Translations under genes and position numbers: made by a program
Shown: positions 56,854 to 59,634 of the stretch, piece after piece
Position numbering within the stretch: the first letter of the stretch is position 1
Layout of the letters: each line of letters begins with the position of its first letter
Source of the DNA: an uncultured Chitinophaga sp.
GTDB taxonomy: Bacteria; Bacteroidota; Bacteroidia; Chitinophagales; Chitinophagaceae
Direction of reading: 5' to 3'
Assembly (NCBI GenBank): GCA_964399755.1
Contig: CAYNSL010000003.1
Span: 840 to 64,839 of the forward strand
Length of the DNA stretch: 64,000 nt
The notes under the pieces: model-generated
What the model was told of the DNA's origin: nothing
The model's database searches: none
The model's input: the letters and a program-made list of their open reading frames with translations, nothing else

Positions 56854-58233
56854 ATGAAATGGATATGGAGGATAATTTTGCTGGCAGGCACAGTCTGCCT
56901 CCTGGCACCTGTTGGTACCGGCGCGCAGACGGCGGGTCCATATTATTTTGTTTCCGATAATGTAAACGGAAATGCTCAGTTTTATGGCAACAGGGATTCC
57001 TATTCCGGGATAACGGTGATTGAAGGATATAACCTCCTGGCCGCGGTACTGGGCGATGTTCCGCAACCTGCATCCGGGCAAACCCTGGTGCCGGCGCATT
57101 CATTTGATTTTGGAAGCGGCACCATTTCGCTGCAACCTTTTGCGTATACCCTTTCCGGCAGTTCAAAGAAATATAACCTGCCGGCAGGCCCGAATCTAAA
57201 AAATTTCCTGAATGATCCTTTAAGCGGCGGAAAATTTGATCTAACCCTTCCATTCTGGGATGAAAACGTGGCACTATCTGACAGAAGCGCACTCATGCGC
57301 GAGCAAAATGATGTTGGAACCTGGCACACTTCGATCGATTTTGATATGAATGGAAATACCACCCTTGGCTTTGACGTCATTGCCGCTGCTGACGGCGTGG
57401 TGGAAAAAAACAGTGATAATTCAGGAATTTACGTAATCAAACATACTTCTTCCGGCGGGAAACAATTTCTGACTATTTATCAGCATTTGCTGGCCTCTTC
57501 CAAGAACTCACTGGTGCCGGGCGATCCGATAAAGCGGGGTGCCTATATCGGCAAAGTGAGGGAGATGAAAGATGCAGACGGAAATCCCGGTTATTCACAT
57601 TTGCATTTCACGGTAGCGGTCAGGGGTCCGCAGCGAACAATCGGAACTGTTACCGTTCCGGAATTATGGTATCTCGTCGATCCTTTCGGAGTTTTTGATT
57701 ATCGGCGGAATTCCGGCAGCACTACCCTTTACAATTATCTTCCGCATAATACCCTATCCTTCATGGTCCGGCCTGTCATCCACAAATACATGTTTCGAAC
57801 CAATCCGCCGGCCGGTTCGCTTCGGAAAAAAGGAGAAATGGAAATCGGGGAGTCGAAAACCGTTACCGTTTCCGCGAGTAATCCATATGATTTAACGGGA
57901 ATATATATGCGCTCCGGTCAGACTTTCCAATTTACAACAGAAAGTCCCGGCTGGAATAACGGTGACAGGGAAACCGATTGCGATGGTTACCCCGGAACAA
58001 TGCTGGATGCCCTGCGCCGTCATCCCGATCTCAATATGATGGTGCTGACAGGCGAATTATTCAAGGAGAATAATTCAAATAACTACACCGGGCATTACTT
58101 CAGGATCGGGTGCGGCCCGCGGACACATAAGGTGACTAAATCGGGTTACCTCGTCTGTTTTGCCAATGATATACTGGCTGCATATAGTGATAATTCCCGG
58201 GTAGTGACCCTAACGGTAAAACGAACGGATTAA
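56854..58233 (+). CDS. M23 family metallopeptidase with C-terminal LecA/PA-IL-like domain
   Basis: Signal peptide ending GA-Q from ATG 56854; HTSID (HxxxD), VIAAADGVV, IYQHL, SHLHF (HxH); C-terminal FANDILAAYSDNS. Confidence 0.85.
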   Translation: MKWIWRIILLAGTVCLLAPVGTGAQTAGPYYFVSDNVNGNAQFYGNRDSYSGITVIEGYNLLAAVLGDVPQPASGQTLVPAHSFDFGSGTISLQPFAYTLSGSSKKYNLPAGPNLKNFLNDPLSGGKFDLTLPFWDENVALSDRSALMREQNDVGTWHTSIDFDMNGNTTLGFDVIAAADGVVEKNSDNSGIYVIKHTSSGGKQFLTIYQHLLASSKNSLVPGDPIKRGAYIGKVREMKDADGNPGYSHLHFTVAVRGPQRTIGTVTVPELWYLVDPFGVFDYRRNSGSTTLYNYLPHNTLSFMVRPVIHKYMFRTNPPAGSLRKKGEMEIGESKTVTVSASNPYDLTGIYMRSGQTFQFTTESPGWNNGDRETDCDGYPGTMLDALRRHPDLNMMVLTGELFKENNSNNYTGHYFRIGCGPRTHKVTKSGYLVCFANDILAAYSDNSRVVTLTVKRTD

Positions 58234-58305
58234 GCGGCCCTAAGCAGTAACCCTGCATCCTGGTATGAACCCGAAAAAACACGAATAAGCATAAAACCCT
58301 TTTGT

Positions 58306-59634
58306 ATGAGAAAACAACCTCCTGCAGTAATATCATTTTTAAAATTCATCAGCCTGGCAATCTCGGGGTTTCCGGCCATGACCTGGGCACAGGCCCCCGT
58401 CAATTACATTTCCGTGCCCAAAATAAAAGCCTATTCAAAATTCCAGAACCCCCTCATCAAAAGAGGTCAGACGCTGCATGTATCGATCGTAAACGGCCAG
58501 GCCTACCTTGAAGGAGATATTGATCTGGGATCGGAAGCGAGCCTGGATGAATTCCAGGGCCGGATGAGCACATTCTCTGTAACCCAGGATGACAACTGGC
58601 TGGAAAGTACCCGATGGACAAACGGCATCGTTCCTTTTGTTATCCTGGACGGGTTTTCGGAAAACGAACGGGCCGTGATTATCAGTGCCATGAACCATAT
58701 CGCTGCCAATTCGAATGTGTGTTTCCGGCGACGTACGGACGAATCCGGGTATATAAAATTCAAAAAATATTCCAGGACGCAATTGGGGTTCGATGGAGGC
58801 AGCTCCCGGCTCGGACGTTGCGGTTATTGTTTGGATGGCCAGGAAATCAAGCTCAGCAGCGTAACGAATGCCGTAGTAAGGCATGAGATATGTCACGCCC
58901 TTGGGCTCCTGCATGAACAATCGCGGGAAGACCGGAATAATTTTGTCGAGATACTAAAGAATAACATTCAGGAAGGGCAGGAGTATAATTTCGACCAGGC
59001 GATCTATTCATCCACAGATGTGGGTAATTATGATTTTGCCTCTATCATGCATTATTTCTCCACCGCCTTCGGGAAAAAAATAAATGGGGTGGTACAACAG
59101 ACGATCAAACGAAAATCGAATCCTTCCGACCAGAGTTTTGGATTCAGCGAAGTGTTAAGCAATGGGGATAAACAAGGGATTAACAGCATGTACCCGCAGT
59201 CGCAAACCTGCGCCACATTACATGTATTGGCCCCGGGAGAACTCGAAGTCGGCGAATCTAAAACGGTGACAATTTCAGCCAATAAAACGCATGACCTCAC
59301 CGGCGTTTACCTGCGAAACGGTCAGAAGTTTCAGTTTTCGACCGCCAGCCCGGCATGGCAGAATAACGGCAGGAATACAGATTGCGATGGATATGAAGGA
59401 GGTCCCCTGGATGTACTCCGGCGCCACAATGACTTAAAGATGATGGCGCTGGTCGGGGAAATATTTGAACAGAATAATACGAATAATTTTACGGGTACTT
59501 ATTTCCGGATCGGGTGCGGCAGGACCTGGACGGCTACTAAAACGGGGTACCTCGTTTGCTTTGCCAATGACATTATTGCCGCCTATAATGATAATACCGG
59601 CGTGGTAACGCTTACCATAAAAAGAACGGAATAG
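58306..59634 (+). CDS. Astacin (M12A) zinc metalloprotease with C-terminal LecA/PA-IL-like domain
   Basis: Signal peptide ending WA-Q; propeptide EGDI; HEICHALGLLHEQSREDR zinc motif; Met-turn YDFASIMHY; C-terminal FANDIIAAYNDNTG. Confidence 0.92.
   Translation: MRKQPPAVISFLKFISLAISGFPAMTWAQAPVNYISVPKIKAYSKFQNPLIKRGQTLHVSIVNGQAYLEGDIDLGSEASLDEFQGRMSTFSVTQDDNWLESTRWTNGIVPFVILDGFSENERAVIISAMNHIAANSNVCFRRRTDESGYIKFKKYSRTQLGFDGGSSRLGRCGYCLDGQEIKLSSVTNAVVRHEICHALGLLHEQSREDRNNFVEILKNNIQEGQEYNFDQAIYSSTDVGNYDFASIMHYFSTAFGKKINGVVQQTIKRKSNPSDQSFGFSEVLSNGDKQGINSMYPQSQTCATLHVLAPGELEVGESKTVTISANKTHDLTGVYLRNGQKFQFSTASPAWQNNGRNTDCDGYEGGPLDVLRRHNDLKMMALVGEIFEQNNTNNFTGTYFRIGCGRTWTATKTGYLVCFANDIIAAYNDNTGVVTLTIKRTE

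What the first reader, a model, noticed from the sequence alone, without database searches (positions are those of the whole stretch)
57832..59634. Two unrelated peptidases carry near-identical C-terminal LecA/PA-IL-like modules
Seen: the last 133 aa of the M23 protein (57832-58230) and the last 132 aa of the astacin (59236-59631) align at 90/133 identities (68%, manual count), with conserved TDCDGY, FRIGCG and LVCFAND..AAY.DN. Established: Pseudomonas LecA (PA-IL) binds Ca2+ and galactose via a 'NDVPGTYGNNSG' loop near its C-terminus. Inference: this is a LecA-like targeting module recently shuffled onto two catalytic domains so both enzymes dock on the same glycan. Alternatively it could serve as a shared export tag, since neither protein has a T9SS CTD.
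Basis: partly seen in the sequence, partly recalled or inferred. Interest (0 to 1): 0.72.

Follow-up and report, generated by a model that had tools for sequence, protein, structure and literature searches.

The report
LecA-fold lectin module on two peptidases
Two neighbouring secreted metallopeptidases of a soil Bacteroidota bacterium each end in a 133-residue domain that is a divergent relative of the Pseudomonas lectin LecA, and the same module sits on several other hydrolase classes, so it most likely works as a calcium-dependent sugar-binding anchor.

Summary
The last 133 and 132 residues of the M23 peptidase (57832-58230) and the astacin (59236-59631) align at 90/133 identities (68%, E 6e-63).

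The LecA reading also holds.
- Pfam's PA-IL model misses the module, but family profiles hit only PA-IL lectins in the PDB (PllA 9e-11, LecA 9e-6).
- An AlphaFold model (pLDDT 96) has EclA-N, PllA and LecA as its 11 best Foldseek matches (TM 0.6-0.83).
- The three side-chain Ca2+ ligands align with residues kept in at least 161 of 163 family modules.

The module also ends papain-type, subtilisin and putative caspase-like peptidases and Tle1-like lipases. It also occurs alone behind a signal peptide and in tandem. This marks it as an independent binding unit.

"Recently shuffled" is not supported. DNA identity is 68%, and 44% at third codon positions. Each copy groups with modules on the same enzyme type in other genomes.

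An export tag is unlikely. The genome has at least 50 ordinary T9SS sorting domains. Astacin-plus-module proteins (56% identical) occur in genome bins labelled Acidobacteriota, where I would not expect a T9SS (not tested).

Sugar specificity, and whether both copies bind the same glycan, remain untested. I class it as a new variant of a known lectin family, of moderate interest. The scan's index holds this sequence only in this window.

The parts
56812..58233 (+). Gene for a secreted M23 metallopeptidase with a C-terminal PA-IL-like module (473 aa from the first ATG; the likely true start is Met15 at 56854)
   Evidence: ORF; Pfam PF01551 at residues 172-272, E 2.1e-10; orthologues P0018 and P0036 have the same architecture
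56854..56928 (+). Predicted Sec signal peptide of the M23 protein (MKWIWRIILLAGTVCLLAPVGTGAQ)
   Evidence: Read from the sequence; orthologue P0018 starts with an equivalent hydrophobic leader. No signal-peptide predictor was run.
57325..57627 (+). M23 catalytic domain, with HxxxD (HTSID, 57325-57339) and HxH (HLH, 57598-57606) zinc motifs intact
   Evidence: Pfam match; motif positions
57832..58230 (+). PA-IL/LecA-fold module, copy 1 (133 aa; M23 residues 341-473)
   Evidence: BLASTP; AlphaFold2 pLDDT 96.2, pTM 0.90; Foldseek top 11 are EclA-N, PllA and LecA; profile hits to PllA and LecA
58159..58194 (+). Predicted Ca2+/sugar loop of copy 1, FANDILAAYSDN. Module residues D113, D120 and N121 align with LecA D100, N107 and N108
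   Evidence: HMM alignment to LecA, PllA and EclA-N chains; conservation 162/163, 161/163 and 161/163; EclA Ca2+ ligands D114, D121 and N122 from PMC11875179. LecA residue numbers are from my own knowledge.
58306..59634 (+). Gene for a secreted astacin (M12A) metallopeptidase with a C-terminal PA-IL-like module (442 aa)
   Evidence: ORF; Pfam PF01400 at residues 103-296, E 1.4e-34; NCBIfam LegP-like astacin, E 6e-43, below the curated cut-off; many orthologues
58306..58392 (+). Predicted Sec signal peptide of the astacin (ends ...MTWAQ)
   Evidence: Read from the sequence. No predictor was run.
58612..59193 (+). Astacin catalytic domain, with HEICHALGLLHE (58882-58917) and Met-turn SIMHY (59041-59055)
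   Evidence: Pfam match; motif positions
59236..59631 (+). PA-IL/LecA-fold module, copy 2 (132 aa; astacin residues 311-442), 68% identical to copy 1
59560..59595 (+). Predicted Ca2+/sugar loop of copy 2, FANDIIAAYNDN
   Evidence: Alignments
59766..59788 (+). Terminator-like hairpin (10 pairs, 8 G-C) between the astacin stop and the convergent TerC gene. No comparable hairpin lies in the 72-nt M23-astacin spacer.
   Evidence: consensus scan only
56082..56708 (+). Context: upstream gene for a ricin-B-type lectin (208 aa)
   Evidence: Pfam PF14200, E 3.3e-13

Best explanation
Each of the two adjacent, probably co-transcribed genes encodes a Sec-exported zinc peptidase. One is an M23 lysostaphin-type enzyme and the other an astacin. 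In both, the catalytic domain is followed by an autonomous 133-residue beta-sandwich module. Shown: the module belongs to the PA-IL (LecA/PllA/EclA-N) lectin superfamily, as a divergent subfamily that Pfam's model does not detect. Shown by alignment: it keeps the three side-chain ligands of the LecA Ca2+ site (D113, D/N120, N121 in the ...FAND....Y.(D/N)N.G loop). These are among the most conserved positions of the whole family. Inferred: the module binds a carbohydrate through that Ca2+ and so holds the attached hydrolase on a glycan-bearing surface, such as the envelope or matrix of other microbes or the producer's own surface polysaccharide. This would raise local enzyme concentration, as the SH3b domain does for lysostaphin or CBMs do for glycosidases. 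Inferred from co-occurrence: a C50-C94 disulfide specific to this subclade stabilises it outside the cytoplasm. The module is a mobile cassette with a sharp boundary at G-E-L-x-V-G-x-S-K. It has been joined to at least four Pfam peptidase families, one putative caspase-like family and Tle1-like lipases. The two copies in this window come from an old join, not a recent one. The sugar specificity is unknown.
For: Identity of the two copies. Catalytic motifs intact. Sequence homology: profile A2 hits PllA at 1e-5 and LecA at 9e-3, with no hit outside PA-IL lectins below E 0.5. Profile A4 hits PllA at 8.9e-11 and LecA at 8.9e-6 over the full length, and nothing else at E <= 0.1. Direct phmmer hits of the module (P0060 at 3.4e-15, P0181) pass Pfam PA-IL's gathering score, and 8 of 150 hits match PF07828. 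Fold: the model has pLDDT 96.2, and the 11 best PDB matches are all PA-IL lectins, prob 1.00, TM 0.60-0.83 over about 127 columns. Ca2+ ligands conserved in 161-162 of 163 modules and aligned to the LecA, PllA and EclA loop; EclA ligands are from PMC11875179. Autonomy: stand-alone signal-peptide-plus-module proteins and a tandem double module lie inside the peptidase-associated clade; there is also a protein with four repeats (P0060). Many partners: astacin 39, Tle1-like 20, family X 11, M23 3 (2 database proteins plus the window's own), S8 2, C1 1. Disulfide: C50 and C94 are both present in 28 modules, both absent in 132 and discordant in 3. Purifying selection: 85% identity at second codon positions against 44% at third.
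Against: No binding was or could be measured. Pfam PF07828 does not match the window modules even at E <= 10. The LecA galactose-contact residues (His50, Gln53) could not be placed, because the HMM alignment of the middle loops is unreliable and no coordinates were available for superposition. EclA-N has the same fold and Ca2+ site, does not keep LecA's galactose-contact residues and does not bind galactose, and its own ligand is unclear (PMC11875179), so fold plus Ca2+ site does not guarantee lectin activity. R63 is near-invariant here but absent from LecA, which hints at a different ligand. Only a Sec signal is evident, so the proteins might stay in the periplasm, where a surface-glycan role would not apply.
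Confidence: 0.6

Rival explanations
1. Export or sorting tag: the module is a non-canonical C-terminal signal, T9SS-like or for another route, that takes both peptidases across the outer membrane.
For: The module always lies at the extreme C-terminus in the peptidase fusions. Neither protein has a recognised T9SS CTD although the host has T9SS substrates. Both proteins have only a Sec signal.
Against: The genome carries at least 50 ordinary type A CTDs, so its T9SS uses the normal signal. Astacin-plus-module proteins that are 56% identical overall occur in two MAGs labelled Acidobacteriota; from my own knowledge that phylum lacks a T9SS. The module also occurs internally (P0094), in tandem (P0040, P0060), alone behind a signal peptide, and on Tle1-like proteins that start without a signal peptide. 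The best-conserved residues are the LecA Ca2+ ligands, not a terminal motif.
Confidence: 0.07
2. Pre-peptidase C-terminal domain (PPC-like): the module is an intramolecular chaperone or inhibitor, or a temporary domain that is cleaved off when the peptidase matures, with no lasting targeting role.
For: It is found at the C-terminus of secreted peptidases of several clans, the same distribution as PPC domains. Subtilases with the module also carry an I9 propeptide, so multi-step maturation is plausible.
Against: No Pfam PPC (PF04151) match. The same module is fused to lipases and occurs alone and in tandem, which a peptidase-specific chaperone would not do. The conserved Ca2+ site points to ligand binding. 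Later cleavage would not exclude a binding role beforehand.
Confidence: 0.12
3. Oligomerisation module: as LecA and PllA form tetramers and EclA-N forms dimers, the module mainly multimerises the enzymes, possibly into mixed M23-astacin assemblies, and sugar binding is lost or secondary.
For: The solved PA-IL lectins are obligate oligomers (PMC11875179). Two co-encoded enzymes share 68%-identical modules.
Against: Interface conservation was not examined. The family-wide invariant residues map to the Ca2+ loop. Tandem modules within one chain fit avidity in ligand binding. Oligomerisation and lectin function coexist in LecA, so this reading complements the main one more than it excludes it.
Confidence: 0.1

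Closest known systems
LecA (PA-IL) of Pseudomonas aeruginosa and PllA of Photorhabdus luminescens (Pfam PF07828)
   Same: Same jelly-roll beta-sandwich fold (Foldseek TM 0.66-0.83). Detectable profile homology over the full length. Same C-terminal ...ND....(Y/F)G(N/D)N.G Ca2+ loop with all three side-chain ligands. Similar size (121-133 aa).
   Different: Only 13-21% identity, and below Pfam's detection. Here the module is exported by Sec, carries a probable disulfide, and is covalently fused to hydrolases. LecA and PllA are stand-alone proteins; from my own knowledge they are made without a signal peptide. The galactose-contact residues are not demonstrably conserved. R63 is near-invariant here and absent in LecA.
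EclA of Enterobacter cloacae (N-terminal PA-IL domain plus a C-terminal fucose-binding domain; PDB 6ygq)
   Same: Best structural match (E 7.5e-6). A PA-IL domain fused to another domain. Its Ca2+ site uses Asp-Asp-Asn (D114, D121, N122), the same D...DN pattern as the window modules.
   Different: The EclA partner is another lectin domain, not an enzyme, and the PA-IL domain is N-terminal. Its authors called it the first LecA domain fused to another domain (PMC11875179). EclA-N's own ligand is unresolved.
Targeting domains of bacteriolytic M23 enzymes (lysostaphin SH3b) and the carbohydrate-binding or M60-like_N domains of glycan-directed metallopeptidases (IMPa, ZmpB)
   Same: Same logic: a catalytic peptidase plus a non-catalytic beta-sandwich that recognises a cell-surface polymer. 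The N-terminal region of IMPa and ZmpB chains appears among the weaker Foldseek matches (E 3e-3 to 3e-2, TM 0.4-0.47). One family member (P0060) matches both PA-IL and M60-like_N profiles.
   Different: Different domain families and positions. No evidence here for peptidoglycan or mucin-glycan specificity. The SH3b comparison is analogy from my own knowledge and was not tested.
PPC (pre-peptidase C-terminal) and T9SS C-terminal domains of secreted Bacteroidota and Gammaproteobacteria peptidases
   Same: A C-terminal beta-sandwich appended to secreted peptidases of many clans.
   Different: No sequence match to PF04151 or TIGR04183. The fold matches PA-IL lectins instead. The module also occurs alone, in tandem and on lipases.

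Membership tests
PA-IL / LecA lectin family (PF07828) | Jelly-roll beta-sandwich fold of LecA, PllA and EclA-N | tested here: met
   AlphaFold2 model pLDDT 96.2, pTM 0.90. The 11 best PDB matches are all PA-IL lectins, prob 1.00, TM 0.60-0.83 over about 127 aligned columns. The next fold family starts at E 7e-4 with TMq 0.48.
PA-IL / LecA lectin family (PF07828) | Match to the curated Pfam model above its gathering score | tested here: not met
   No PF07828 hit for either window module, even at E <= 10, nor in the whole proteins.
PA-IL / LecA lectin family (PF07828) | Statistically supported sequence homology to solved PA-IL lectins (profile or transitive) | tested here: met
   Profile A2: PllA 1e-5, LecA 9e-3. 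Profile A4: PllA 8.9e-11, LecA 8.9e-6 over the full length, with only PA-IL chains at E <= 0.1. P0060 is hit by the module at 3.4e-15 and scores 53 bits on PF07828 against a cut-off of 22.5.
PA-IL / LecA lectin family (PF07828) | Ca2+-coordinating side chains (LecA D100, N107, N108; EclA D114, D121, N122) | tested here: met
   Module D113, D120 and N121 align with them. They are conserved in 162, 161 (D or N) and 161 of 163 family modules. Both window copies have D...DN. This is a sequence-level test only; no metal was modelled.
PA-IL / LecA lectin family (PF07828) | Galactose-contact residues of LecA (His50, Pro51, Gln53) | tested here: inconclusive
   The HMM alignment of the central loops differs between targets and has low posterior support. 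No coordinates were available for a superposition. Both copies have an RRH(P/N)D motif whose equivalence to the LecA loop is unproven.
PA-IL / LecA lectin family (PF07828) | Ca2+-dependent binding of D-galactosides; homotetramer | not testable with these tools
   Needs protein biochemistry.
T9SS type A C-terminal sorting domain (TIGR04183) | Match to the CTD profile at the C-terminus | tested here: not met
   The only hit is a sub-threshold match (E 0.14, 12 bits, cut-off 23) in the middle of the M23 protein, and there is none in the astacin. The same model finds 50 ORFs elsewhere in this genome.
Pre-peptidase C-terminal domain (PPC, PF04151) | Match to the Pfam profile | tested here: not met
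   No Pfam family at E <= 10 for either module.
Peptidase family M23 | Pfam match plus the HxxxD and HxH zinc motifs | tested here: met
   PF01551, 41 bits against a cut-off of 28.7. HTSID at residues 172-176 and HLH at residues 263-265.
Astacin family M12A | Pfam match plus HExxHxxGxxHE and the SxMHY Met-turn | tested here: met
   PF01400, 119.8 bits. HEICHALGLLHE at residues 193-204 and SIMHY at residues 246-250.

The most novel reading that the evidence does not exclude
A divergent, Sec-exported PA-IL lectin subfamily serves as a common, exchangeable 'address label'. On this reading it aims a whole arsenal of secreted hydrolases at one class of surface glycan on competing or prey microbes. 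The arsenal would be astacin, M23, subtilisin, papain-type and caspase-like peptidases, and in other phyla Tle1-type lipases and T6SS cargo. That would make lectin-guided enzyme delivery a general antagonism strategy of soil Bacteroidota and Acidobacteriota. It would also extend the LecA family from a handful of pathogen lectins to a widespread enzyme-targeting domain with new sugar specificities.
Probability: 0.3. Interest if true: 0.65.

Novelty: new variant of a known kind. Interest (0 to 1): 0.5.

Why it matters
LecA-type lectins are known mainly as small stand-alone virulence lectins of a few Gammaproteobacteria and are drug targets. The only characterised fusion (EclA, published 2024) was described as the first LecA domain joined to another domain. 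Here a subfamily that Pfam does not detect is shown to be a modular appendage of at least five hydrolase classes in environmental bacteria. That widens the family's known biology from adhesion to enzyme targeting. It also supplies a set of probable new Ca2+-dependent glycan binders for specificity screening, and gives a testable model of how secreted lytic enzymes without T9SS tags are aimed at their substrates. It is an incremental advance, not a new principle: carbohydrate-binding modules on enzymes are commonplace.

Tried and rejected
1. Direct Pfam and NCBIfam scans of the modules found nothing.
2. A single-sequence phmmer search against the PDB gave only noise: antibody light chains and APOBEC3F at E about 1.
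3. The search for homologous proteins with the isolated module or with profile A2 returned few proteins (7 and 12), because of its word and length filters. The exhaustive representative search was what opened up the family.
A3 worked.
5. I tried to map LecA's galactose-contact residues from the HMM alignments. The central loops align inconsistently, so I make no claim.
6. Family X (N-terminal domain of 11 fusion proteins) has no Pfam, NCBIfam or PDB sequence match. The AlphaFold model from 6 sequences is poor (pLDDT 56). Its Foldseek list is dominated by caspase-fold proteins, but only at E about 3e-3 and TM about 0.35-0.4. I therefore call it 'putative caspase-like' at most.
7. There is no Pfam or PDB hit and no PF01289 match anywhere in the genome at E <= 10. 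The claim is neither confirmed nor excluded, because CDCLs are very divergent.
8. Recent gene conversion between the two modules is rejected on DNA identity.
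Full report
**Observation.** The window holds two co-oriented ORFs 72 nt apart: 56812-58233 (473 aa) and 58306-59634 (442 aa). Pfam identifies Peptidase_M23 at residues 172-272 of the first and Astacin at residues 103-296 of the second. The zinc motifs are intact: HTSID and HLH in the M23 protein, HEICHALGLLHE and the SIMHY Met-turn in the astacin. Both proteins begin with hydrophobic leaders that end in A-Q. I read these as Sec signal peptides from the sequence alone; no predictor was run.

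BLASTP between the two proteins gives a single significant alignment. It covers exactly the last 133 and 132 residues: 90/133 identities (68%), E 6e-63. The own genome (3.57 Mb, 95.7% complete) contains only these two copies.

**What the module is.**
- Direct scans fail. There is no Pfam family even at E <= 10, no NCBIfam family, and only noise against PDB sequences.
- An exhaustive phmmer search over 1.84 billion representative proteins found 170 relatives at E <= 1e-3. Of the best 150, eight match Pfam PA-IL (PF07828), the best at 2.6e-15.
- P0060 is hit by the module at 3.4e-15 and scores 53 bits on PA-IL against a cut-off of 22.5.
- A profile of 81 module sequences hits PllA at 1e-5 and LecA at 9e-3 in the PDB. 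No hit outside PA-IL lectins falls below E 0.5.
- A profile that includes the bridging sequences hits PllA at 8.9e-11 and LecA at 8.9e-6 over essentially the full length. Only PA-IL chains appear at E <= 0.1.
- Independently, I built an AlphaFold2 model from close relatives only (48 rows). It has pLDDT 96.2 and pTM 0.90. Its 11 best Foldseek matches in the PDB are all EclA-N, PllA or LecA chains, with probability 1.00 and TM 0.60-0.83 over about 127 columns.

The module is therefore a divergent member of the PA-IL superfamily with the LecA fold.

**Binding site.**
- In the HMM alignments the C-terminal loop ...FAND-ILAA-Y-S-DN-S... lines up with LecA ...YND-VPGT-Y-G-NN-S..., and with the equivalent loops of PllA and EclA-N.
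- The EclA paper lists D114, D121 and N122 as the side-chain Ca2+ ligands (PMC11875179). The window modules have D113, D120 and N121 at the same positions.
- Across 163 family modules these positions are D in 162, D or N in 161, and N in 161. Together with W41, G52 and N112 they are the most conserved columns. This is what one expects if the Ca2+ site is the selected function.
- The galactose-contact residues of LecA could not be mapped with confidence, so specificity is open. R63 is near-invariant here (153/163) and is not in LecA.
- C50 and C94 co-occur almost perfectly: both present in 28 modules, both absent in 132, discordant in 3. This suggests a disulfide in the subclade that includes both window copies, which fits an exported protein.

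**Distribution of partners.** I clustered the N-terminal regions of the collected proteins and identified the groups with Pfam.
- Astacin: 39 proteins.
- Tle1-like alpha/beta hydrolase (PF09994): 20.
- An unannotated 'family X': 11.
- M23: 2, plus the window protein.
- Subtilase with an I9 propeptide: 2.
- Papain C1: 1.
- Several singletons, including a beta-propeller lectin fusion, and one Hcp fusion in the Pfam tally.
- About 45 stand-alone proteins of 123-150 aa.

Family X has a conserved GHG...LRLVYMCNC pattern. A weak model (pLDDT 56) finds mostly caspase-fold proteins at E about 3e-3. It is a putative clan-CD-like peptidase and no more than that.

The module boundary is the same in every architecture...GEL.VG.SK.... 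Within the peptidase-associated clade there are also signal-peptide-plus-module proteins of 160-190 aa and a tandem double module. The module is thus an autonomous secreted unit.

**History.**
- A maximum-likelihood tree of 89 modules separates a well-supported clade (SH-aLRT 99) of 79 peptidase-associated modules from the Tle1-linked and stand-alone ones.
- Inside that clade the window's M23 module groups with the two other M23-borne modules (77% and 73% identity), and the astacin module groups with astacin-borne ones (77%). The two window copies are not sisters. Resolution inside the clade is poor: 133 columns and many open forks.
- DNA identity between the copies is 68%, third positions 44%, second positions 85%, and the longest identical run is 14 nt. 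The join is old and the protein is under purifying selection. There is no sign of recent duplication or gene conversion.
- The module is patchy. It was found in 4 of 201 sampled genomes of the family and not in the one other sampled genome of the same genus.
- A syntenic relative has the layout rsmE ... astacin-module ... TerC, pyrD, thiolase. It carries the astacin fusion (71% identical) but different upstream cargo and no M23 gene.
- Astacin-plus-module proteins 56% identical over their full length occur in two MAGs labelled Acidobacteriota/Pyrinomonadaceae. This suggests transfer across phyla, with the caveat that MAG binning can err.

**Function.** The best-supported reading is a Ca2+-dependent glycan-binding module that tethers the attached hydrolase to a carbohydrate-bearing surface.
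- The evidence is homology and fold, conservation of the metal site, autonomy, tandem repetition, and promiscuous fusion to enzymes of unrelated chemistry.
- The neighbourhood contains a ricin-B lectin and other signal-peptide proteins of unknown function, downstream of a 7TM histidine kinase and a NarL-type regulator. This is compatible with an extracellular attack or foraging role, but that was not tested.
- The steps from 'LecA fold with a Ca2+ site' to 'binds a sugar', and from there to 'targets the enzyme', are inferences. EclA-N shows that a PA-IL domain with an intact Ca2+ site need not bind galactose.

**Rivals.**
- Export tag. The genome has at least 50 normal T9SS type A CTDs and the two proteins match none. 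The module also occurs in other phyla, internally, in tandem and alone. I consider this reading unlikely.
- PPC-like maturation domain. It has the same distribution on secreted peptidases, but there is no sequence match. Occurrence on lipases and alone also argues against a peptidase-specific chaperone. Cleavage after secretion is not excluded.
- Oligomerisation. This is plausible by analogy with LecA tetramers and is compatible with lectin function.

**Comparison and novelty.** The closest known proteins are LecA, PllA and EclA-N. The open literature I could search holds no description of PA-IL domains fused to peptidases. The EclA paper calls EclA the first LecA domain fused to another domain. 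The principle of a binding module on an enzyme is ordinary. The family assignment, the breadth of partners and the fact that Pfam misses the subfamily are new details. I rate it a new variant of a known kind, with moderate interest (0.5).

The scan's own index holds this sequence only in this window. Earlier notes on the same island gave context, but I did not rely on them.

Noticed in passing
L012:3185-4396, L013-L017 (Chitinophagaceae, Saprospiraceae and Bacteroidota MAGs); also P0047, P0051, P0054 and others: An unannotated N-terminal domain of about 260 aa ('family X') is fused to the same module. It has conserved LGHG and LRLVYMCNCxG motifs. There are no Pfam, NCBIfam or PDB sequence hits. 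A poor AlphaFold model (pLDDT 56) finds mostly caspase, paracaspase and Raptor folds at E about 3e-3. It may be a new clan-CD-like cysteine peptidase family.
   Followed up: partly
P0082, P0100, P0110 and 17 more representatives: A more distant branch of the same module sits at the C-terminus of T6SS Tle1-like phospholipase domains (PF09994). At least one of these (P0082) starts without a signal peptide. The Pfam tally also shows one Hcp fusion. PA-IL-like domains may therefore also be part of T6SS cargo.
   Followed up: partly
L010:2109-3449 and L011:544-1929: Two MAGs labelled Acidobacteriota/Pyrinomonadaceae encode astacin-plus-module proteins 56% identical over their full length to the window's astacin. 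This points either to cross-phylum transfer or to mis-binned contigs.
   Followed up: partly
window 48007-59789 compared with L006:1918-11475: The stretch between rsmE and the convergent TerC/pyrD genes is a variable island. A syntenic relative keeps a histidine kinase, a NarL regulator and the astacin fusion, but replaces the other cargo with two unannotated genes (408 aa; 385 aa, alanine-rich and repetitive) and adds a 128-aa gene.
   Followed up: partly
window 53292-55064: A 590-aa signal-peptide protein has no Pfam, NCBIfam or PDB sequence match. PF01289 finds nothing in the whole genome at E <= 10, so that reading remains unverified.
   Followed up: partly
window 51135-53201 and 55189-55902: Two further ORFs of the island (688 aa and 237 aa) have no Pfam match. 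The 237-aa one also has no NCBIfam or PDB sequence match and ends in a Cys- and Thr-rich tail.
   Followed up: no
modules of P0034, P0035, P0187-P0192 and L010/L011 (module positions 114 and 117): A sister subclade lacks the C50-C94 pair. It has two cysteines inside the Ca2+ loop instead (NDC..CY.DN; 29 and 24 occurrences). This would be an alternative disulfide right at the predicted binding site.
   Followed up: no
window 42090-42314 (end of ORF 40572-42320): The best T9SS type A sorting domain of the genome (E 3.3e-14) lies in this window, on a 582-aa ORF. This shows that normal T9SS cargo is encoded close to the island.
   Followed up: no
window 59766-59788: A strong G+C-rich hairpin (10 pairs) followed by a T-rich tail lies between the convergent astacin and TerC genes. 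It is a likely bidirectional terminator.
   Followed up: no
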